The position numbers and the translations under genes were made by a program. This document shows positions 8,819-64,000 of a stretch of 64,000 nt of DNA, in pieces. Within the stretch, counting starts at the first letter, position 1. Each line of letters starts with the position of its first letter. The DNA is from a virus, in UHGV virus genome UHGV-2031204; one strand, 5' to 3'. Under the pieces are notes generated by a model that saw only the letters and a program-made list of their open reading frames with translations, was not told the DNA's origin and ran no database searches.

Positions 8819-8863
8819 TCAGATATATATTACCTAGAGGAGAGTGAAATTTACGTTCACTCC
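8816..8863 (+). promoter_or_regulatory. Conserved phage promoter-like motif plus 5'-UTR hairpin (copy 1 of 4)
   Basis: TCAGATATATATTACCTAGAGG followed by hairpin GGAGAGTGAA…TTCACTCC; related copies at 13205, 45418, 49705. Confidence 0.45.
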
Positions 8864-13204: not shown

Positions 13205-13247
13205 TTTCAGATATATATTACTTAGGTGAGAGTACAAAAGCTCTCAC
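13205..13247 (+). promoter_or_regulatory. Conserved promoter-like motif plus 5'-UTR hairpin (copy 2 of 4)
   Basis: TTTCAGATATATATTACTTAGGTGAGAGTACAAAAGCTCTCAC; near-identical over ~75 bp to 49700-49776. Confidence 0.5.
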
Positions 13248-18216: not shown

Positions 18217-18807
18217 ATGGCTGAACGTTGGACTAAAGAAGGTATTATTGAATCCAAAACGGATTTAGAAGGCGGGTACGTCAACGACCCTGACGACTTA
18301 GGTGCAGAAACGAACCACGGTATCACGGTAACGACTGCACGTGAGTATGGTTATAAAGGGAAAATGAAAGACCTTACCCGTGCTCAAGCTTTTGACATTT
18401 ACGATCGTGGTTGGTGGAAGAAACTCAAACTCGATGAGATTTTTGCTATCTCGCCTTTACTGGCTGACCGGATGTTTGATTTCGGAATTAACGCAGGTCG
18501 TGCCAACTGCGTGAAATCGCTCCAGCGTATTCTCAACGTGTTGAACAACGAAGGTAAACTCTACGCGGACATCGATGCTGACGGTGGAATGGGGCCTAAA
18601 ACGCTGGGCGCGTTGAACGCGTATCTGAAATACCGTAAAGATAAAGGGTTAAGCATTTTAATCTTTGCGTTAATCTCGCACCAAGTAACTTACTACACGG
18701 AAATCTCCGAAAAACGTAAGAGAAACGAGAAATACACCTACGGCTGGTACGGCCGCGTGTTCAGAGAAATGGCAGATTATGCGGTGAAAGCGGGGTTAGT
18801 AAAATGA
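18217..18807 (+). CDS. Endolysin-like GH108 glycosidase with C-terminal peptidoglycan-binding region
   Basis: EGGYVNDPDDLGAETNHGIT matches the GH108 N-terminal signature. Confidence 0.8.
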   Translation: MAERWTKEGIIESKTDLEGGYVNDPDDLGAETNHGITVTTAREYGYKGKMKDLTRAQAFDIYDRGWWKKLKLDEIFAISPLLADRMFDFGINAGRANCVKSLQRILNVLNNEGKLYADIDADGGMGPKTLGALNAYLKYRKDKGLSILIFALISHQVTYYTEISEKRKRNEKYTYGWYGRVFREMADYAVKAGLVK

Positions 18808-18908
18808 ACTGGTTTGCTAAACTCTTAGTGTTATTGTGGAAAGCGTTAACGTTTGGTCGAAAACGTAAAGACGAAAAACGTGGGCAAGAATTCTTCTGGT
18901 TTTTGTAA
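18804..18908 (+). CDS. Small 34-aa hydrophobic/basic ORF overlapping the endolysin stop (possible lysis accessory protein)
   Basis: ATGA overlap at 18804; MNWFAKLLVLLWKALTFGRKRKDEKRGQEFFWFL; not in track (under 60 aa). Confidence 0.3.
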   Translation: MNWFAKLLVLLWKALTFGRKRKDEKRGQEFFWFL

Positions 18909-20082: not shown

Positions 20083-20167
20083 CTATTTCTAAGGCGTTTA
20101 TACCTTATTTTGTATAAAGACGCTTAGAATGCGTTTTACGCACGATTTGGCGGTTAAAATGAATATA

Positions 20168-20199
20168 CCCTACTCCTTAATAGGAGTAGGGTAGTTTTT
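20168..20199. terminator. Terminator between convergent genes
   Basis: CCCTACTCC-TTAAT-AGGAGTAGGG plus T-run; same stem family as 61200 and 61811. Confidence 0.65.
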
Positions 20200-20680
20200 A
20201 TTGTTCCGCAGGATGGAGCATTGTTCCAGTGTCAGGCGCTACACCTTCAATACAGCGGAAGAACGTAATGCCTTTACCATCACCCGTTTTATATTCTAAA
20301 GTAGAATACGCAAACGTTGGTGTTTTTGAAAGTAAACCGTTTACACGGTAATAACGTTGTCCTGTGATAGGATCAATATTCCCATTGACTTTACCTAATA
20401 AATCTTTATAAAGTTGGGGCGACTCAATCTTACCATTTGGCCAAGTGGCTACCCAATTAGCACCAGTATCGACTACGGTTACTGAACCTAACATGAGGTT
20501 AGTCGAACTGACGACAGGTTTGTAATTTGCAAAATCTTGCTCTACGCCCATACAGGTGTAAATAACCATGTCGTGTGGTTCCACCGGCACAGTCGAGAAT
20601 TGACCGTTAGCGGTGGGTTGTAAAGCACATCCTGCTAATGAAAAAACACCAACCATAACGGTAAGAAAACGCTTTATCAT
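20198..20680 (-). CDS. Lipoprotein (signal peptide with lipobox LAG-C), opposite-strand moron
   Basis: MIKRFLTVMVGVFSLAGC…; ATG 20680 after RBS AAGGTGA; track start GTG 20689. Confidence 0.65.
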   Translation of the reverse strand: MIKRFLTVMVGVFSLAGCALQPTANGQFSTVPVEPHDMVIYTCMGVEQDFANYKPVVSSTNLMLGSVTVVDTGANWVATWPNGKIESPQLYKDLLGKVNGNIDPITGQRYYRVNGLLSKTPTFAYSTLEYKTGDGKGITFFRCIEGVAPDTGTMLHPAEQ

Positions 20681-20821
20681 ACTTTTCACCTTTTTTATAA
20701 AAAGTTAAAAAAAAATATTTTTACAGACAAGCCTTACTGCCGTCTGTCATAACAATTAACACCACTTCTATAATCCGAACAATACTATGCAATCCACCCT
20801 GCCAACCACGAGGTAAATACG

Positions 20822-21361
20822 ATGGCTAAGGCTTTTCAACAGCAACTTATTGACGCCGTTAATGCCAAAAACGGTTCCCTGGAACACCAACTGACTGTTG
20901 GAGATGTTAATTTCGGTACTGTAGAACTTTATAGTCCTTCTGGCGAAGACGACAACCGTAACACTAAAGTTGTCCTGACCGCAAAAGACGAAAGCGCTAA
21001 CTTTACCGGAAGCAAAGAGTTCCATTATATCCGTCTGGTCGCTGAATCTTTAATCGGTGTGAAAACCGTTACCGATGCAACTACAGATGTCGCTAACGAT
21101 GTTATCGTAGCTGCTCTGAATGCCGACATGATTACTAAAGGTTATGTCAATGATGCCTTTACCGCTGAAGAACTGGAAATCCAGAAAACTGATGCAGGTG
21201 AAGGCGGTTTCAACTATACCGTTCAGGTAAAAGAAGGTCATATCAAGTTCCAGGCTGGTATGATCGCAAACTACCAGTACCGTGTACCGGCTCCTCCGAA
21301 GGTAGCTCTGGACGGCCTGGACGGTGAGCTTGACGGCTTCAATGCAGAAGCGGTTATGTAA
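20822..21361 (+). CDS. Paralog-family member (family of 16793/17655/21430)
   Basis: 179 aa; …NTKVVLTAKDESANFTGSKEFHYIRL…GELDGFN. Confidence 0.55.
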   Translation: MAKAFQQQLIDAVNAKNGSLEHQLTVGDVNFGTVELYSPSGEDDNRNTKVVLTAKDESANFTGSKEFHYIRLVAESLIGVKTVTDATTDVANDVIVAALNADMITKGYVNDAFTAEELEIQKTDAGEGGFNYTVQVKEGHIKFQAGMIANYQYRVPAPPKVALDGLDGELDGFNAEAVM

Positions 21362-21369
21362 GTTAAATC

Positions 21370-21394
21370 GGGGGGGGGGGTAACCTCCCCCGAT
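21370..21394 (+). terminator. G11 tract plus CCTCCCCC stem element
   Basis: CGGGGGGGGGGG-TAAC-CTCCCCCG directly after stop; related to element at 90-118. Confidence 0.4.
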
Positions 21395-22022: not shown

Positions 22023-22694
22023 TTACAGCCCTTGCTCTAACGCAAACGCTTTTATCGAATCGTAATCACGTGCTTCAGCCCAAGCCCTGACTTCTCTCTT
22101 CTGCTCAGACATTGCGTGGTGTAATCTTTGATCGCGCTCAACGATTGCTGCCAGCAACGTCTTGCACTGTTCTAACGTAAACGGTTCGATACGGGTGTTG
22201 TTAGCCGTTAACCAATACGCTGGCGCAGTTTCTGACTGGATATAACGACTCAGTGCTACCTGTGACTTCTCATCTGCCTGGAAAGTGAAATCACCTACCT
22301 GAATCTCAGCATAGCGCGCATCCTGATAACGGAATTCCAAAGCGCTTAGAATTTTCTGAACATCGGTAAAGATATACCGCACCGTGGAACGTAAACCTGT
22401 ACGAATTTCTTCCAGGTCAATCCCCAACGTGTCGTTAACAAAGTCTTTCGCTTTCTGTAGCGTAAACCGTGCTTCGATTTCAGACATGTCGTAGTTACGC
22501 ATTTGTTCCAATGCTTCGCGATCAGACATCCCATCAATCAGCTTATAGTGCAGTAACGCACAAAACCCTGTACGGCCGTGATCTTCGCTACCGATTTTCT
22601 CCATGTAGTTACCATGACGGTCAATCGGTAAATCATGCGCAAAATAACGGCGACGGATTTCTTCTTTCGTTAAGCCTTCACCAGTAGCAGACAT
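22023..22694 (-). CDS. Hypothetical protein, last gene of the radical-SAM operon
   Basis: 223-aa ORF overlapping upstream gene by 25 nt. Confidence 0.5.
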   Translation of the reverse strand: MSATGEGLTKEEIRRRYFAHDLPIDRHGNYMEKIGSEDHGRTGFCALLHYKLIDGMSDREALEQMRNYDMSEIEARFTLQKAKDFVNDTLGIDLEEIRTGLRSTVRYIFTDVQKILSALEFRYQDARYAEIQVGDFTFQADEKSQVALSRYIQSETAPAYWLTANNTRIEPFTLEQCKTLLAAIVERDQRLHHAMSEQKREVRAWAEARDYDSIKAFALEQGL

Positions 22695-23242
22695 TCATCG
22701 TCTCCTTTAATCAACCCTAATTCGATTAACAGTTCAAAATCGATATGACGGAATCTTGTGTCGAAATCCGATTCCCAATCGATACGGATACCCTGGCATT
22801 CTTCTGGCGTTAGCTCAGGAAAAATCACGGTATTAAATTTCTCTCGCTCATCGTAAAACCCATCAATCGGTGAGTTCGGGTTACGTGTTGCGAAGATAGT
22901 AATGCCGGGGAAGGACAATGCCAACACAGTGATAGATTCTGCGCTGGGTTCGCTTAAAGAGCGGCGTAGAAACGCAATTTTGTGACGTGGGAAATCCAAT
23001 ACCCGTTCTTCAAACCCTGGGTTACGTTTTTCAATTTCCGCGACCGACAGGTCAGTAAGTTCGGTGCAGTACATTGGGATGATTACAGTCACGCCGTGAC
23101 GAATCAGTAAGCGTTTTACGTCATCGGTAAAATCTTCACCGTTAATCACCGCATAGCAACCGAATAGCTTACTGTTTTCCAGAAACTTATCCAGAAGTCG
23201 AATTCTACGCTTCGTAATATTGTTGATCAGAATTGGTTTCAT
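22670..23242 (-). CDS. Hypothetical protein in the radical-SAM operon
   Basis: 190-aa ORF; RBS AAGAGAAG; overlaps the 3' end of the upstream gene. Confidence 0.5.
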   Translation of the reverse strand: MKPILINNITKRRIRLLDKFLENSKLFGCYAVINGEDFTDDVKRLLIRHGVTVIIPMYCTELTDLSVAEIEKRNPGFEERVLDFPRHKIAFLRRSLSEPSAESITVLALSFPGITIFATRNPNSPIDGFYDEREKFNTVIFPELTPEECQGIRIDWESDFDTRFRHIDFELLIELGLIKGDDECLLLVKA

Positions 23243-24527
23243 CTTTGGCTTCTCTTAATAATTTTTCCTTTTGGGCACGTTCACGAACACAGCGTGGGCA
23301 ATAACACATACTCGTGTCGTGGAACGCTTTTGCTGACGTCGTACCCATCTTCTGTTTCCAGTATTCCGCCACCATCAGTTTCGCTGTCGTCCAGCCGCAC
23401 TGGCGTCGTTCAGCGTGATACGCTTTACGGTCTTCTAACGTTCCTTCCCCGTTCTCGTAAGAAGCCGCCGCACAGCTACCACAAGCGTGTTTCATCGGAC
23501 AACCTAAACAGGTTTCTGGGTAGTTGGTATATTGCGTTTGAATCTCTTCTAGCAGCTTACCGTTGTCCAGACTGACGAATTCCCGACCTACCAACTCAAA
23601 CACCGCAGAACGCGACGTTACCGTTGACATAAAGCGGTTACAGCCAAAGATCTTACGGTCAAATCCTAAGCACGTCATGTGCGTTAATGTCCCACAGAAC
23701 GGACGTAAGCGTTCTGGGTTCAACCGTACGGTGTCATTATACAGTAACTGGTCACGCCAGTTCGGTTCCCAAATCGTATCGAAATCCAACCCTTCTGGAA
23801 TGATGTGCGATAAGATATTACGTGGGTTGGTGTGTAATCCTTTCTCAACCCAGTAATCTATCACATCCATCATCTGTAAAGCGATTGACGTCGCCATGCT
23901 ACGTGGCATAACGTCTTCGAAAGTTACGTTTCCAGAAATTGTCCCACCGCCAGTAATGTCAATTAATGACTTCATCCCCGCAGCATAGAACGGCAGCGTT
24001 TCTAACGTAAAGGTTGCTTTTACGCCGAGCTCTGCAATGCCAACCTCTTTTAAGTAGTTATAGCCACGTACTGCGGCTTCGTAAGAACCCTGGCGTGTTG
24101 TTGTGAAGATACGATAACGGTCATGGGATTCAGGTAAGCCATCAATCGAAACCCCAACCGAAAGTTTATCTTTCCAACGTTCTACAATCTCACGGTTCAA
24201 CGGACGATCTAACAGCGTTCCGTTCGTGGAGATACTAAACATAAACGGTCGGTTGTGTTCTTTACACAACTGCTCAGCGGTTTCAAACGCAGCCAGCAGC
24301 AGTTTAGGCTGCATGAACGGTTCGCCACCGATAATGTCGATAATAACTTCAACATTCGGTTCGTTTTTATCGCGTTCAAAACAGGCGTGCAAGAAATCAA
24401 CAATATCTGCCGCTTTGTTGTTACGTGGGTACTTACGTTCGTAACAATATTCGCAGTCCAGGTTACATGAAAGGTTGGTTACGATCTGATACGTTAACTG
24501 CTTAGGGAATTCATTTACTTGACTCAT
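23205..24527 (-). CDS. Radical SAM enzyme with C-terminal SPASM-like Cys cluster
   Basis: CNLDCEYC (CxxxCxxC) near N-terminus; C-terminal cysteines CLGCPMKHACGSC…CGW…CYCPRC. Confidence 0.75.
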   Translation of the reverse strand: MSQVNEFPKQLTYQIVTNLSCNLDCEYCYERKYPRNNKAADIVDFLHACFERDKNEPNVEVIIDIIGGEPFMQPKLLLAAFETAEQLCKEHNRPFMFSISTNGTLLDRPLNREIVERWKDKLSVGVSIDGLPESHDRYRIFTTTRQGSYEAAVRGYNYLKEVGIAELGVKATFTLETLPFYAAGMKSLIDITGGGTISGNVTFEDVMPRSMATSIALQMMDVIDYWVEKGLHTNPRNILSHIIPEGLDFDTIWEPNWRDQLLYNDTVRLNPERLRPFCGTLTHMTCLGFDRKIFGCNRFMSTVTSRSAVFELVGREFVSLDNGKLLEEIQTQYTNYPETCLGCPMKHACGSCAAASYENGEGTLEDRKAYHAERRQCGWTTAKLMVAEYWKQKMGTTSAKAFHDTSMCYCPRCVRERAQKEKLLREAKDETNSDQQYYEA

Positions 24528-25434
24528 TTGCCGCCCCTCTATTACGCCCTGCCATCACTACGCGACGAATATATTCGTACGCCTCTACACCGATAGAGAA
24601 GGCCAGTTGGTTACATCCCGATTCCAGAACGTTAGGTGCATTCTGGAGTTGGTGCTCACCACCGTCTGCATTAATCCAAAGACTTTCGCTGCAAACGTTA
24701 CACCCTTCTTCAAACACTTTACTTACCGTAAAGCCACATTCACGACTATTTACTACATTCAGTCGTTCAATGTTGTCCTGAACCTGATAGTAGCCGTAAA
24801 TAAAGTTCATGACGTGGTCGGGCGATAAAGGTTTTGGCATTTTCGCATCTAAGAGTAACGTCATTGCACGGAAACCGTAATGGTAAATCGCGCTGTGCAG
24901 CTGAATAATATCTTCGTGCCAGCGTTTGTCCCCTAAACGGTCCCGTGTCAGGACACCCCAAGTCTGGACATTATCCAGCTCGTAGATCGTTTCCAGTGCT
25001 TCGTAACAGCCTTCGTCAATAAAGCGCATAAACGGGCGCTCAGACGACTTAAACCCATCGATGCTAACGTAGACATTGTCAAACTGTTTTAGCAACGGGA
25101 GATGCGATTTACGCATCTTTAAGCCATTGGTATACAACTGGTGTTTGAGTTCTGGACGAATCACTTTTAATTCGTCAACAAACGCCTCAATTTTACGGGT
25201 TGCCAGTAATGGCTCACCACCCGTCCACTGAATTTCGGTAATGGTTGGATTAGCTTCCAGCGCTTCCAAAATTCGCTCACGTTGAAACTCTCGCGGAGAA
25301 TCTTCACGATTCATGTAATAGGCTCCACCGCAGAAGCTACAGTCCAGGTTACACTTGGACGTAGCGACTACGGACAATACGGTGGGTTTATCGTATAAAC
25401 GATTCGATAACCTTGGTTCTGCATTGGTTGTCAT
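24511..25434 (-). CDS. Radical SAM enzyme (second maturase-like protein)
   Basis: CNLDCSFC motif; C-terminal CGF…CNVC…GCNQ cysteines; 17-nt overlap with downstream gene. Confidence 0.7.
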   Translation of the reverse strand: MTTNAEPRLSNRLYDKPTVLSVVATSKCNLDCSFCGGAYYMNREDSPREFQRERILEALEANPTITEIQWTGGEPLLATRKIEAFVDELKVIRPELKHQLYTNGLKMRKSHLPLLKQFDNVYVSIDGFKSSERPFMRFIDEGCYEALETIYELDNVQTWGVLTRDRLGDKRWHEDIIQLHSAIYHYGFRAMTLLLDAKMPKPLSPDHVMNFIYGYYQVQDNIERLNVVNSRECGFTVSKVFEEGCNVCSESLWINADGGEHQLQNAPNVLESGCNQLAFSIGVEAYEYIRRVVMAGRNRGAANESSK

Positions 25435-25455
25435 TGCAGGTGACTCCGGTCGTTT

Positions 25456-26343
25456 TTAAATATAATCAATGGCGAACAAAGGATCGTCGTCTACGTTAGC
25501 ACCAGGGGTTAACAAGAATGGAGAGTTATACGCTTCCAAAATACGGTTAAGGTCTTTATAACGGACATTTAAACGTTCTAAATCCGCTAACGTTACGTTA
25601 CGGTCCAACACCGCCGACACTGCTGCTTTCTCTTCGTCAGTTAACGTGACTTTCGTCATTAAGAAACTAACGAGTTTTGCCAGATCCGCTTCTGTTGACG
25701 GATGCTCGCCAATACGCGTTTGAATCAAATGCTGCATCCAAGGCTTACGGATGCGTTTTGTGATTTCGTGTTCATCCGTCAGGGCAACCCACACAGAACG
25801 TTCACGATCCCACACGAACTTATAGCTATACGCCATTAAATCCGCTAAGCAATTAATCCCTAACGCTTCGTACCCTTCAATTTCGATATACGATTCCGTA
25901 TCGAAATAGTTCTTCGTTTCTGGTGTTACCAGGGTAAAGAAATACGGGAACGAGCCTAAGTAATCCGGTGACCACCAACGACGGGCAACCGGTTTTGCGC
26001 CCATTTCTTCAAATGGGGTAAAGAACAATTCCATATCTACGGAGTTATTCAAAATCCCATCACTAAAGAAATATTTACCCGCAACCAGTTTACCACGCAA
26101 CTCGGAGTCACCGGTAAAGACCACTACACTTTCTGCCGACAGATCACGAATCTTAAACGTATTTTCTACACGATAGTTTTTACGATCGGTAAAGAAACGC
26201 CCGCGCACTTTAGGCCATTCGCCCGGCAACTGTGTCAACAGACGAACTTCGTCTGCTAAGTGTGCACGTACGGAATCAGGGGAAGAAATGTGAAGTGGAT
26301 GATTGAAAATTGTTTTGTACGCTAAATGTAAATCATTCTTCAT
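25456..26343 (-). CDS. Hypothetical protein, first gene of the enzyme block
   Basis: ATG 26343 follows GGAG; track start TTG 26355. Confidence 0.5.
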   Translation of the reverse strand: MKNDLHLAYKTIFNHPLHISSPDSVRAHLADEVRLLTQLPGEWPKVRGRFFTDRKNYRVENTFKIRDLSAESVVVFTGDSELRGKLVAGKYFFSDGILNNSVDMELFFTPFEEMGAKPVARRWWSPDYLGSFPYFFTLVTPETKNYFDTESYIEIEGYEALGINCLADLMAYSYKFVWDRERSVWVALTDEHEITKRIRKPWMQHLIQTRIGEHPSTEADLAKLVSFLMTKVTLTDEEKAAVSAVLDRNVTLADLERLNVRYKDLNRILEAYNSPFLLTPGANVDDDPLFAIDYI

Positions 26344-26492
26344 TGATTGCTCCAATTATTTCACGGTCAAACGGGCATTCAGGGTATAGAACCCACCGCG
26401 CCATTGCCTACCGGTAACTTGAAACTCAGTAGTAAACCCGTACGATTAACTCGGTTATTGCGTAATAGACATACTACCACTGGAGGGCTTAG

Positions 26493-45417: not shown

Positions 45418-45473
45418 GATTTCAGATATATTTTACTTAAGTGAATAGGGACTGAAGTACCAGTTCAGTCCCT
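45418..45473 (+). promoter_or_regulatory. Conserved promoter-like motif plus hairpin (copy 3 of 4)
   Basis: GATTTCAGATATATTTTACTTAAGTGAA then hairpin GGGACTGAA-GTACCA-GTTCAGTCCC. Confidence 0.45.
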
Positions 45474-49704: not shown

Positions 49705-49747
49705 TTCAGATATATATTACTTAAGTGAGAGTACAAAAGCACTCACT
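49705..49747 (+). promoter_or_regulatory. Conserved promoter-like motif plus 5'-UTR hairpin (copy 4 of 4)
   Basis: TTTCAGATATATATTACTTAAGTGAGAGTACAAAAGCACTCAC; near-duplicate of 13205-13247. Confidence 0.5.
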
Positions 49748-58349: not shown

Positions 58350-58449
58350 ATATTATCATTAGGGCACACAACAAAGGAGTATTAGCTGTCCGCGCCGTCA
58401 TTTCGTCTTACGGAATACGGAAATGTATAAATCCAACTGGAGAAACAAA

Positions 58450-59148
58450 ATGTTTCGTATCTTCTTTCTTTTACTGGTAACACTTTTCGCGTTTAACGCA
58501 CAGGCGTCAACGTCAACGCCACATTCTAAACATCAGCGTGAGTTTACACAAATCCAACATCGGTTCGAAAAAGTCAGTCCGTTAATTGTGGAAATCTCAC
58601 GAAAGCAAGGCGTTGATCCTAAGCTGATGATTACGCTGATTTATCGTGAATCGCGTTTTGATCCCAAGGCTTACAACAAAAGCTCACGAGCACACAGCCT
58701 GGTACAGATGCTTCCAAGTACCAAGCGTAATCTGCTAAGGCTTTATGGAAAAGAATTAGGTCTTAGTCAGAACGCCGATTTGTATAATCCGCGTAATGCT
58801 GTTTTGCTGGCTGCCGCGTATGTTAAACATCTTGAAAAGGGGTTAACCAAACGACTCAAACGCAAGCCCACCATGGCTGAAGTTGCGTTAGCTTACCACT
58901 GGGGTGAAAGTGGCGCTCACACGCGAATCAAAAGCAAATCTCGAGCAGCACAACGAGAAATGGCAGGCTTTATGAAAGACGCCTCGTTCTATAGCGCGAA
59001 AATCGATGTGCCTGTTGTTGTGGGCTCGGCCCCACGTCAGCTTGCGTTTGCGAAGAAAACACCACGTCAGATTCAATTGGCGGAAGTTAGTAAAATTTGG
59101 GATACGATAAACACGAGTTTTCCAATCAATAGAGGAGTTACCCTTTGA
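58450..59148 (+). CDS. Secreted lytic transglycosylase (SLT domain)
   Basis: Signal peptide MFRIFFLLLVTLFAFNAQA; YRESRFDPKAYNKSSRAHSLVQMLPST matches the SLT motif; RBS GGAGAAAC before ATG 58450. Confidence 0.7.
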   Translation: MFRIFFLLLVTLFAFNAQASTSTPHSKHQREFTQIQHRFEKVSPLIVEISRKQGVDPKLMITLIYRESRFDPKAYNKSSRAHSLVQMLPSTKRNLLRLYGKELGLSQNADLYNPRNAVLLAAAYVKHLEKGLTKRLKRKPTMAEVALAYHWGESGAHTRIKSKSRAAQREMAGFMKDASFYSAKIDVPVVVGSAPRQLAFAKKTPRQIQLAEVSKIWDTINTSFPINRGVTL

Positions 59149-63867: not shown

Positions 63868-64000
63868 ATGGGTTCATTTTTTAAAGTGCTTCCGTTCTTC
63901 CTTCAGATGTTAATGGAAGCATTTAAACCAGGAGAAGGAGAAAACGTATCAAGAGCAAGCAAGATAATGACTTTAATCATCACGATCTTGTTGTCGTATT
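63868..64000 (+). CDS. 5' end of a membrane-protein ORF running off the window end
   Basis: RBS GAGGTGA before ATG 63868; MGSFFKVLPFFLQ…IMTLIITILLSY. Confidence 0.3.
   Translation, partial: MGSFFKVLPFFLQMLMEAFKPGEGENVSRASKIMTLIITILLSY

What the first reader, a model, noticed from the sequence alone, without database searches (positions are those of the whole stretch)
20198..20680. Opposite-strand lipoprotein moron between lysis and structural genes
A single minus-strand gene with its own divergent AT-rich upstream region and terminator encodes a lipoprotein (lipobox LAG-C). Phage-encoded lipoproteins in this arrangement are known to block the phage's own receptor (for example T5 Llp), so this is a candidate superinfection-exclusion factor.
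Basis: partly seen in the sequence, partly recalled or inferred. Interest (0 to 1): 0.55.

Follow-up and report, generated by a model that had tools for sequence, protein, structure and literature searches.

The report
Conserved jumbo-phage outer-membrane lipoprotein gene
A giant (SPN3US-type) phage carries a small stand-alone gene for a protein predicted to be lipid-anchored to the inner face of the host's outer membrane; the gene is real and conserved, it may shield infected cells or newly released phages from wasted re-infection, but its function has never been tested.

Summary
Window 20198-20680 (-) encodes a 160-aa lipoprotein precursor (lipobox LAG|C, Cys18) with its own hairpin terminator and its own upstream region. 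It is the homolog of Salmonella phage SPN3US gp159, Erwinia phage Asesino gp174 and E. coli phage Goslar gp88 (PHROG 9559, function unknown). The family is phage-only and narrow: 13 representatives among 1.84 billion proteins. All 31 members aligned keep the lipobox and two further cysteines. AlphaFold gives a compact beta-barrel of about eight strands, with only generic fold matches. The best-superposing one is the MliC/PliC-type protein PhiA, and no sequence homology supports it. The protein is missing from the SPN3US virion proteome although its neighbours are virion proteins. A conserved TATG motif suggests transcription by the phage's own late RNA polymerase. It is not the spanin: a canonical lysis set lies elsewhere. 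It is not related to Llp, Cor or Rtp45, and is more than twice their size. Superinfection exclusion or progeny protection is the best guess (about 0.35) and is untested. "Moron" is half right: the gene is an autonomous unit and is absent at the same junction in phage CR5, but it is old and occurs in 55 related phage records.

The parts
20198..20680 (-). CDS of the 160-aa prolipoprotein. It is the homolog of SPN3US gp159, Asesino gp174 and Goslar gp88, and belongs to PHROG 9559.
   Evidence: dN/dS is 0.04-0.10.
20630..20680 (-). Signal peptide, residues 1-17 (MIKRFLTVMVGVFSLAG).
   Evidence: Read from the sequence. Hydrophobicity and regex scan. Weak LPAM_1 matches in three relatives.
20627..20638 (-). 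Lipobox L-A-G-C. Cys18 (20629-20627) is the predicted lipidated first residue of the mature protein. Residue +2 is Ala, which by the +2 rule predicts sorting to the outer membrane.
   Evidence: Cys is invariant in the alignments. A lipobox is present in 31 of 31 members and +2 is never Asp.
20390..20425 (-). Most conserved motif of the family, E-S-P-Q-L-Y-K-D-L-L-G-K (residues 86-97). It is a candidate functional site.
   Evidence: L90 is invariant; S87, Q89 and Y91 are at least 90% conserved.
20252..20554 (-). Span between the two invariant cysteines, Cys43 (20554-20552) and Cys143 (20254-20252). They lie in the first and last long barrel strands, which suggests an intramolecular disulfide. 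The beta-barrel core covers roughly residues 39-145.
   Evidence: Invariant columns. AlphaFold2 model with mean pLDDT 83.6 and core above 90. The disulfide is inferred.
20687..20692 (-). Ribosome-binding site AAGGTG, 6 nt before the ATG.
   Evidence: Read from the sequence.
20691..20722 (-). A/T-only tract of 32 nt. It falls inside the 5' UTR if transcription starts at the TATG motif.
   Evidence: Read from the sequence. The intergenic region is 34% GC.
20723..20747 (-). Hairpin in the 5' UTR (ACAGAC...GTCTGT). The other phages keep it through changed stems.
   Evidence: Alignment of four phages. Stems are GACAG/CTGT in SPN3US and STsAS, and GACAAT/ATTGTC in Asesino.
20745..20751 (-). Conserved TATGACA block. 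It is the putative late promoter for the phage non-virion RNA polymerase, with the start at G20748.
   Evidence: A 7-nt invariant block in an otherwise diverged intergenic region. The phiKZ late promoter consensus is TATG with the start at the G (PMC4666361). Promoter function here is inferred.
20166..20193 (.). Bidirectional intrinsic-terminator hairpin, shared with the convergent M15-like gene.
20786..20789 (+). TATG inside the second conserved block (TATGCA..CCC). It is the putative late promoter of the divergent gene for the gp160-like head protein. Listed as context, not as part of the lipoprotein unit.
   Evidence: SPN3US gp160 is an abundant head protein (PMC5694885).

Best explanation
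The gene encodes a non-virion protein. [quoted passage not shown] There a short tether would hold a compact, disulfide-braced beta-barrel of about 15.6 kDa in the periplasm.

It is probably transcribed from its own TATG-type promoter by the phage's non-virion RNA polymerase, together with virion genes.

My best guess at function is that it acts on the infected cell's envelope. It would bind, from the periplasmic side, an outer-membrane component that phages of this lineage need for irreversible adsorption or tail penetration. Infected cells and post-lysis debris would then no longer consume phage particles. That is superinfection exclusion and progeny protection, working like T5 Llp, Cor or Rtp45 but with an unrelated and larger protein.

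Shown here: the gene is real and constrained, the lipobox is conserved, the family is phage-restricted, the fold class is a small beta-barrel, and the gene is linked to fibre and virion genes. From the literature: the SPN3US homolog is not listed among virion proteins.

Inferred: outer-membrane location, late timing, the disulfide, and the whole exclusion function and its target.
For: - Lipoprotein signal with lipobox in 31 of 31 family members, and +2 never Asp.
- Two further invariant cysteines.
- Confident beta-barrel model, pLDDT 83.6.
- Not among SPN3US virion proteins, although gp155, 157, 158, 160 and 161 are.
- Purifying selection.
- The family is confined to phages: 13 representatives in 1.84 billion proteins. 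The sequences and contigs I could place are jumbo-phage ones.
- The gene always sits in fibre or virion-surface modules. In Goslar it directly follows the P1 S-like tail fibre and its Caudo_TAP chaperone. In metagenomic relatives it directly follows large genes and lies among DUF7941 genes. This is the arrangement known for llp, cor and rtp45 beside the receptor-binding protein gene (PMC9586334; PMC12685063).
- The canonical lysis genes are elsewhere.
- The gene is an autonomous unit, absent at the same junction in CR5. That fits an accessory host-interaction function.
Against: - The mature protein is about 2.5 times larger than known exclusion lipoproteins.
- The putative promoter is of the late (TATG) type, whereas Llp is made shortly after infection (abstract of bioRxiv 10.64898/2026.03.26.714494). 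Late timing fits progeny protection better than classical exclusion.
- SPN3US is reported to use the flagellum as receptor. A periplasmic lipoprotein cannot mask a flagellar filament directly.
- The core motif ESPQLYKDLLGK is nearly invariant across phages of Salmonella, Erwinia, Proteus and E. coli. This points to a conserved target rather than a receptor-specific one.
- In SPN3US the immediate neighbours are head proteins, not tail fibres.
- There is no experimental evidence of any kind.
Confidence: 0.35

Rival explanations
1. Periplasmic inhibitor of a peptidoglycan hydrolase. This would be a MliC/PliC/PhiA-like barrel used the way T4 uses Spackle. It would neutralise the cell-wall hydrolase carried by incoming tails of the same phage type, or the GH108 or M15-like enzymes encoded next door. 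The result would be protection from lysis-from-without or superinfection, or control of lysis timing.
For: - Neisseria ACP, a small barrel protein that I recall (from memory) to be a lysozyme inhibitor, also appears at 21% identity.
- A BFVD hit is named as carrying an LprI-like lysozyme-inhibitor domain (RB49).
- PhiA, MliC and PliC have an eight-stranded barrel, and the PhiA barrel is stabilised by a disulfide (PMC8334348). This family likewise has invariant Cys43 and Cys143 in its first and last long strands.
- E. coli MliC is also a lipoprotein and shows the same Y-x-C at a similar distance from the lipobox.
- The gene is adjacent to a GH108 muramidase and an M15-like peptidase. The SPN3US homolog of the peptidase is a virion protein not found in tailless particles.
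- An S-P-Q-L-Y motif loosely resembles the inhibitory SGxxY loop.
Against: - No Pfam MliC (PF09864) match in any of the 31 members, even at E up to 10.
- hhalign aligns only the signal peptide, lipobox and first strand, at probability 30-64%.
- SGxxY itself is absent, and I could not show that SPQLY occupies the same loop.
- In Goslar the neighbouring genes include no annotated or Pfam-detected GH108 or M15 gene, and Asesino lacks the M15-like gene at this site. Linkage to these enzymes is therefore not conserved.
- PhiA itself failed to inhibit its proposed target in vitro.
Confidence: 0.18
2. Lysis component. The protein would be an o-spanin-like or other outer-membrane-disrupting or lysis-timing lipoprotein that works with the neighbouring cell-wall hydrolases at the end of infection.
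For: - Predicted outer-membrane lipoprotein with a late-type promoter.
- Lies within about 1.4 kb of a GH108 + PG_binding_3 gene, which is followed by a conserved 34-aa ORF with a hydrophobic N-terminus.
Against: - SPN3US has a separate, canonical-looking lysis set. It comprises gp198 (a transglycosylase-like protein annotated as putative endolysin, with a hydrophobic N-terminus), gp200 (hydrophobic, with at least one predicted membrane segment), gp204 (N-terminal membrane segment followed by a Pro-rich tail, i-spanin-like) and the adjacent lipoprotein gp205 (o-spanin-like).
- The window carries the equivalents at 58423-59148 and from 63907 onward.
- There is no i-spanin partner next to this gene and no C-terminal membrane segment, so it is not a u-spanin.
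- A compact, disulfide-braced barrel is unlike known o-spanins (from general knowledge).
Confidence: 0.07
3. An envelope-remodelling accessory protein with another target. Examples are the flagellar basal body rings, Tol-Pal/Lpp, Bam/Lpt or secretion machines. It would change motility, envelope stability or vesiculation for the benefit of the phage, without blocking re-infection as such.
For: - The arguments for location are the same as for the best explanation.
- The near-invariant core motif across phages of four host genera argues for a conserved host target.
- The family is restricted to chimalliviruses of Enterobacterales (55 of 289 chimallivirus-type records).
- SPN3US is flagellotropic.
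Against: No positive evidence for any particular target. No similarity to known effectors of these machines was found.
Confidence: 0.2

Closest known systems
T5 Llp, T1/phi80 Cor and Rtp Rtp45: small superinfection-exclusion lipoproteins of siphophages
   Same: All are phage-encoded lipoproteins anchored in the inner leaflet of the outer membrane. They carry an intramolecular disulfide. Each is encoded as a small separate gene beside the receptor-binding or fibre genes; in Goslar the homolog sits directly after the tail fibre and its chaperone. They act from the periplasmic side on an outer-membrane receptor (PMC9586334, PMC12685063).
   Different: No detectable sequence or fold relation. The mature protein here is 143 aa and forms a beta-barrel of about eight strands, against about 60 aa. 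The host phage is a contractile-tailed, nucleus-forming jumbo phage. The promoter is probably late. The target is unknown, and SPN3US's reported receptor is the flagellum.
MliC/PliC/PhiA periplasmic or membrane-bound lysozyme and peptidoglycan-hydrolase inhibitors
   Different: No Pfam PF09864 match, and no profile-profile alignment across the barrel. The SGxxY inhibitory loop is not present. The barrel here is larger, about 107 residues with extra strands.
Lambda Bor (from general knowledge, not tested here)
   Same: A lipoprotein gene transcribed against the flow of the neighbouring late and lysis genes, with its own promoter and terminator. It is the textbook moron layout.
   Different: Bor is expressed from a prophage and confers serum resistance. 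This phage belongs to a lytic jumbo-phage group with its own RNA polymerases. No similarity was tested or found.
T4 Spackle (from general knowledge, not tested here)
   Same: A periplasmic phage protein that blocks the tail lysozyme of superinfecting phage. It is the functional template for the hydrolase-inhibitor rival.
   Different: Spackle is a soluble helical protein made early. It is neither a lipoprotein nor a barrel.
o-spanins (Rz1 type)
   Same: Late-expressed outer-membrane lipoproteins of phages.
   Different: They need an adjacent or embedded i-spanin. This lineage has a separate i-/o-spanin-like pair (SPN3US gp204/gp205; window ORF from 63907).

Membership tests
Bacterial lipoprotein (substrate of Lgt/LspA/Lnt) | N-terminal signal peptide with a basic n-region, a hydrophobic h-region and a lipobox [LVI][ASTVI][GAS]-C | tested here: met
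   The sequence is MIKR-FLTVMVGVFS-LAG-C. All 31 relatives keep a lipobox. No SignalP or LipoP tool was available, and processing was not shown experimentally.
Bacterial lipoprotein (substrate of Lgt/LspA/Lnt) | Outer-membrane sorting by Lol, meaning no Asp at position +2 (the enterobacterial rule) | tested here: met
   Residue +2 is Ala here, and A, T, S, V, Q or M in the 31 relatives. The rule itself comes from general knowledge.
Llp/Cor/Rtp45 superinfection-exclusion lipoproteins | Sequence or structural relatedness to Llp, Cor or Rtp45 | tested here: not met
Llp/Cor/Rtp45 superinfection-exclusion lipoproteins | Very small mature protein (about 6-7 kDa) | tested here: not met
   The mature protein is 143 aa and 15.6 kDa. 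Llp has 61 residues and Rtp45 is about 6 kDa.
Llp/Cor/Rtp45 superinfection-exclusion lipoproteins | Gene adjacent to, usually downstream of, the receptor-binding protein gene | tested here: inconclusive
   Met in Goslar, where gp88 directly follows tail fibre gp90 and chaperone gp89. Also met in the Goslar-like metagenome contig L004. In the window and in SPN3US the neighbours are DUF7941 head-protein paralogs, an M15-like virion protein and DUF1353.
Llp/Cor/Rtp45 superinfection-exclusion lipoproteins | Blocks adsorption or infection by the cognate phage when expressed | not testable with these tools
   This needs efficiency-of-plating and adsorption assays.
MliC/PliC lysozyme inhibitors (Pfam PF09864) | Match to the family profile | tested here: not met
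   None of the 31 members matches PF09864, even at E up to 10. hhalign against an MliC/PliC alignment covers only the signal peptide up to the first strand, at probability 64%.
MliC/PliC lysozyme inhibitors (Pfam PF09864) | Eight-stranded antiparallel beta-barrel braced by a disulfide | tested here: met
MliC/PliC lysozyme inhibitors (Pfam PF09864) | SGxxY loop that inserts into the lysozyme active site | tested here: not met
   There is no SGxxY in the family consensus. A conserved S-P-Q-L-Y exists at residues 87-91, but I could not show that it is positionally equivalent.
Spanins (o-spanin or u-spanin) | Partner i-spanin gene adjacent or overlapping (two-component), or a C-terminal membrane segment (unimolecular) | tested here: not met
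   The flanking genes are the M15-like and DUF7941 genes. The hydrophobicity scan found no membrane segment beyond the signal peptide in the SPN3US homolog, and the window protein's C-terminus (...GVAPDTGTMLHPAEQ) is not hydrophobic. A separate i-/o-spanin-like pair exists (SPN3US gp204/gp205; window 63907 onward).
Moron (autonomous accessory gene) | Own promoter and own terminator | tested here: met
   The terminator is at 20166-20193. The conserved TATGACA block and 5' hairpin are shown. Promoter activity is inferred from the phiKZ late consensus.
Moron (autonomous accessory gene) | Present in some genomes and absent at the same site in close relatives, often with atypical composition | tested here: inconclusive
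   Absent at the M15-like/gp160-like junction of CR5, and tblastn finds no homolog in the Derbicus-group records. In Goslar it lies elsewhere in the genome. GC3 is 0.335 against 0.41-0.50 for the neighbours. On the other hand, it occurs in 55 of the roughly 62 records that carry the neighbouring gene.

The most novel reading that the evidence does not exclude
This is the founding example of an uncharacterised class of phage envelope effectors. It would be a 15-kDa barrel lipoprotein of MliC/PliC-like shape, made late by nucleus-forming jumbo phages of Enterobacterales. It would disarm the envelope step of infection for phages of the same lineage. It could do this by neutralising the virion-borne cell-wall hydrolase, or by jamming a conserved outer-membrane or flagellar basal-body component. 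As far as my searches found, no superinfection-exclusion or progeny-protection system has been described in Chimalliviridae. This one would use a mechanism unlike Llp, Cor or Rtp45.
Probability: 0.15. Interest if true: 0.65.

Novelty: new variant of a known kind. Interest (0 to 1): 0.4.

Why it matters
Nucleus-forming jumbo phages (SPN3US, Goslar, the Erwinia jumbo phages) are model systems and candidates for phage therapy and biocontrol. My literature searches found nothing on how they deal with superinfection, lysis-from-without or loss of progeny on cell debris.

This family is conserved, phage-only and predicted to be exported, and it has homologs in two genetically tractable systems (SPN3US gp159 and Goslar gp88). 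Its function can be tested with one plasmid and a plating assay.

If it excludes related phages, it matters for designing cocktails of jumbo phages. It would also add a structurally new class to the known exclusion lipoproteins. If it inhibits a cell-wall hydrolase, it would be a phage-borne MliC/PliC analogue. If it does neither, it remains an ordinary conserved hypothetical lipoprotein.

Tried and rejected
- **Pfam, NCBIfam and PADLOC scans of the protein:** no family matched. PHROGs returned only phrog_9559, function unknown.
- **Sequence search of the PDB with a family profile:** only a trivial signal-peptide match to TrwH.
- **MliC/PliC homology:** I verified the E. coli MliC sequence against 2F09, built an MliC/PliC alignment and ran hhalign twice. 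Only the N-terminus aligned, so family membership is rejected. The third homolog search returned only close MliC relatives and added little diversity.
- **afdb50 fold search:** the library was unavailable. BFVD returned the family itself plus weak hits inflated by the signal helix.
- **Spanin hypothesis:** I rebuilt the whole SPN3US genome and scanned it for lipoboxes and membrane segments. A separate i-/o-spanin-like pair turned up, so this hypothesis is largely rejected.
- **Sigma-70 promoter:** none on the gene's strand upstream of the ATG. This is expected for a phage group reported to transcribe without host RNA polymerase.
- **TATG enrichment:** TATG upstream of genes is not enriched over chance in the window as a whole (my reading). 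The promoter call therefore rests on cross-phage conservation, not on motif counting.
- **Diversifying selection:** not seen. dN/dS is 0.04-0.10. The sharp identity drops against near-identical flanks look like mosaic recombination, because dS is saturated.
- **Literature on SPN3US gp159, Goslar gp88 or jumbo-phage lipoproteins and superinfection:** nothing found. The SPN3US infection-proteome paper (PMC6384053) is not held.
- **The "DUF2846" label on one Erwinia phage homolog:** not reproduced by hmmscan.
Full report
**What is there**

- It starts at an ATG preceded by AAGGTG.
- It encodes 160 residues beginning MIKRFLTVMVGVFSLAG|CALQ..., which is a textbook lipoprotein signal peptide with lipobox L-A-G-C and Ala at +2.
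- Five bases after the stop codon lies a 12-bp G+C-rich hairpin (20166-20193). It folds at -30.1 kcal/mol (z = -6.9) and reads as a terminator on both strands, so it also serves the convergent upstream gene.
- The gene is the only minus-strand gene at the end of a 20-kb plus-strand run.
- It is the only ORF in the 64-kb window that passes my lipobox and hydrophobicity scan.
- The upstream intergenic region is 34% GC against 44.7% for the window, and includes a 32-nt A/T-only tract.

**Where the window comes from**

The window is a jumbo phage of the SPN3US / phiEaH2 lineage (Seoulvirus/Erskinevirus-like; SPN3US is placed in the Chimalliviridae).
- At the DNA level only an adjacent gene matches known phages, at 81%.
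- The protein has tblastn matches in 55 phage records: 27 Erwinia, 22 Salmonella, 4 Escherichia, 1 Proteus and SEGD1.
- It corresponds to SPN3US gp159, STsAS_134 and Asesino gp174, in the same place and orientation. At 33% identity it also corresponds to Goslar gp88.
- It belongs to PHROG 9559, function unknown. It has no Pfam, NCBIfam or PADLOC family.

**How wide the family is**

- A profile search of 1.84 billion representative proteins found only 13 representatives. The 5.8-billion-protein search found 31 clusters.
- Several hits lie on contigs of 220-250 kb, and the others whose context I inspected are phage-type contigs. Some of the phage contigs sit inside bacterial assemblies.
- A core virion protein of the window hits 289 chimallivirus-type records. 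The lipoprotein therefore marks the subgroup that infects Enterobacterales.
- Its neighbour hyp190 occurs in 62 records. The records that have hyp190 but not the lipoprotein are the Derbicus/CR5 group.
- In CR5 the M15-like gene is followed directly by the gp160-like gene, with no lipoprotein between them.

**The protein**

- All 31 aligned members keep a lipobox Cys, and +2 is never Asp. By the enterobacterial +2 rule (general knowledge) this predicts an outer-membrane location.
- Cys43 and Cys143 are invariant, as are D71, G73, L90, R109, Y111, S126, G133 and G135. The block E-S-P-Q-L-Y-K-D-L-L-G-K (residues 86-97) is nearly unchanged from the Salmonella phages to the Erwinia phages.
- With the 31-sequence alignment AlphaFold2 gives mean pLDDT 83.6, with the core above 90. 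The model is a signal helix, a short tether containing a conserved GQFSTVPV strand, and a compact beta-barrel over residues 39-145.
- The two invariant cysteines lie in the first and last long strands, so a bracing disulfide is likely (inference).
- The mature protein is 143 aa, 15.6 kDa, with pI 5.2.
- Against a close relative, dN/dS is 0.04 for the mature part.

**Fold comparison**

PhiA is the tightest superposition: 2.5 A over 78 of 90 residues at 18% identity. PhiA has the MliC/PliC fold with a stabilising disulfide (PMC8334348). I tested real membership and it failed:
- no PF09864 match in any member;
- hhalign against E. coli MliC, or against an MliC/PliC alignment, covers only the signal peptide, lipobox and first-strand Y-x-C;
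- the SGxxY inhibitory loop is absent.

The resemblance is therefore at fold level only. BFVD returned the family itself plus weak matches to other phage proteins.

**Context and expression**

In SPN3US the neighbours are virion proteins.
- gp160, the homolog of the divergent gene at 20822-21361, is a head protein present in more than 300 copies. It is described with a 20-member head paralog family (DUF7941 here), which also includes gp161 (DUF4376).
- gp157 (DUF1353) and gp158 (M15-like) are low-abundance virion proteins. gp158 is missing from tailless particles.
- gp159 is not in the virion tables (PMC5694885 and PMC5105663).

Aligning the divergent intergenic region from four phages shows two conserved blocks in otherwise diverged sequence. 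TATGACA points toward the lipoprotein gene and is followed by a hairpin whose stem changes in a compensatory way. TATGCA..CCC points toward the gp160-like gene.

TATG, with the start at the G, is the late-promoter consensus of the phiKZ non-virion RNA polymerase (PMC4666361). Goslar gp88 also has a TATG 37 nt upstream of its ATG. I infer late, phage-polymerase transcription. This is not shown, and TATG alone is too frequent to count as evidence.

A different motif, TCAGATATATATTAC, occurs four times in the window against 0.08 expected. It looks like the early promoter, and it is absent from this gene's upstream region.

**Is it part of lysis?**

The reconstructed SPN3US genome has a separate and conventional set:
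- gp198, a transglycosylase-like protein annotated as putative endolysin, with a hydrophobic N-terminus;
- gp200, a small hydrophobic protein with at least one predicted membrane segment;
- gp204, with an N-terminal membrane segment and a Pro-rich tail, which is i-spanin-like;
- gp205, an adjacent lipoprotein, which is o-spanin-like.

The window holds the gp198 homolog at 58423-59148. The gp204 homolog begins at 63907 and runs off the end of the window.

The lipoprotein has no adjacent i-spanin and no C-terminal membrane segment. A spanin role is therefore unlikely.

**Linkage in distant relatives**

- In Goslar and a Goslar-like metagenome contig the homolog directly follows a P1 S-like tail fibre and its Caudo_TAP chaperone.
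- In three other metagenomic contigs it lies co-directionally among DUF7941 genes that carry varied C-terminal domains such as LRR, DUF285 and a TIM-barrel. In one of these it is convergent with M15-like and DUF1353 genes, as in the window.
- The constant feature is a fibre or virion-surface gene module, not the cell-wall hydrolases.
- Among close relatives the flanks are 95-100% identical. The lipoprotein is 71-92% identical and the gp160-like gene only 59-60%. Because dS is saturated, this looks like mosaic exchange rather than positive selection.

**Interpretation**

What is shown is a real, constrained, phage-specific gene for a lipoprotein that is predicted to be exported and is not reported in the virion. 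It forms its own transcription unit inside a virion-gene region. What it does is inferred.

The best-supported reading (about 0.35) is an envelope-acting exclusion or progeny-protection factor in the manner of Llp, Cor and Rtp45. Those are periplasm-facing outer-membrane lipoproteins, encoded beside the receptor-binding protein gene, that deform the receptor from inside (PMC9586334, PMC12685063).

Against this reading:
- the protein is unrelated to them and 2.5 times larger;
- the promoter looks late;
- the core motif is conserved across host genera;
- SPN3US's reported receptor is the flagellum.

The rivals are:
- a Spackle-like or MliC-like inhibitor of a peptidoglycan hydrolase (about 0.18);
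- another conserved envelope target (about 0.2);
- a lysis accessory (about 0.07).

**Verdict**

The gene is an uncharacterised, conserved jumbo-phage lipoprotein family whose members are already in the databases as hypothetical proteins. If it is an exclusion factor, it is a structurally new variant of a known kind. Interest is moderate: nothing here is startling, but the hypothesis is cheap to test in SPN3US or Goslar.

Noticed in passing
window 8819-8833, 13207-13221, 45422-45436, 49706-49720 (+): The motif TCAGATATATATTAC occurs four times against 0.08 expected. At the three sites whose downstream sequence I examined (8819, 13207, 49706) it lies upstream of a gene and is followed by a hairpin. 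It is probably the early (virion RNA polymerase) promoter of this phage.
   Followed up: partly
window 58423-59148 (+) and 63907-64000 (+); SPN3US gp198, gp200, gp204, gp205: A canonical-looking lysis set lies far from the finding. It comprises a transglycosylase-like protein with a hydrophobic N-terminus and an i-spanin-like ORF that runs off the window end. In SPN3US the next gene, gp205, is a second lipoprotein that looks like the o-spanin.
   Followed up: partly
window 18804-18908 (+): A conserved 34-aa ORF (MNWFAKLLVLLWKALTFGRKRK...) overlaps the stop codon of the GH108 gene. It is annotated in Asesino (gp172) and is called in close relatives. It has a hydrophobic N-terminus and a basic tail. 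Its function is unknown, and it could be a small membrane partner of the muramidase.
   Followed up: no
window 20822-21361 (+): The gp160-like DUF7941 gene, whose SPN3US homolog is a head protein with more than 300 copies per capsid, is only 59-60% identical between phages whose flanking genes are 95-100% identical. dN/dS is 0.19-0.28, the highest in the region. It is a local hot spot of divergence or exchange in a capsid-surface protein.
   Followed up: partly
window 22023-26355 (-): A conserved operon encodes DUF4376, a 190-aa protein, two radical SAM enzymes and a 299-aa protein. In CR5 and one metagenomic contig it is co-directional with the DUF1353 and M15-like genes. This may be a protein-modification module for virion proteins. 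One record labels the radical SAM enzyme AlbA-like.
   Followed up: no
window 21367-21394 (+) and about 70-100 nt upstream of the gene at 148: Terminator-like hairpins are built on runs of 10-11 G (GGGGGGGGGGGTAACCTCCCCC). Such homopolymer tracts are error-prone in sequencing and could also slip during replication.
   Followed up: no
proteins P0015 and P0020: Two entries of the 1.84-billion-protein library are scrambled, block-permuted versions of an SPN3US-gp159-like sequence, each matching the profile in 7 stretches. They look like artefacts of gene calling or assembly, not real proteins.
   Followed up: no
window genes against SPN3US and Asesino: The phage is a mosaic. The radical SAM genes are closest to SPN3US (82% against 74%). 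The lipoprotein (59% against 48%) and the gp203-like virion protein (82-83%) are closest to the Erwinia phages Asesino and phiEaH2.
   Followed up: partly
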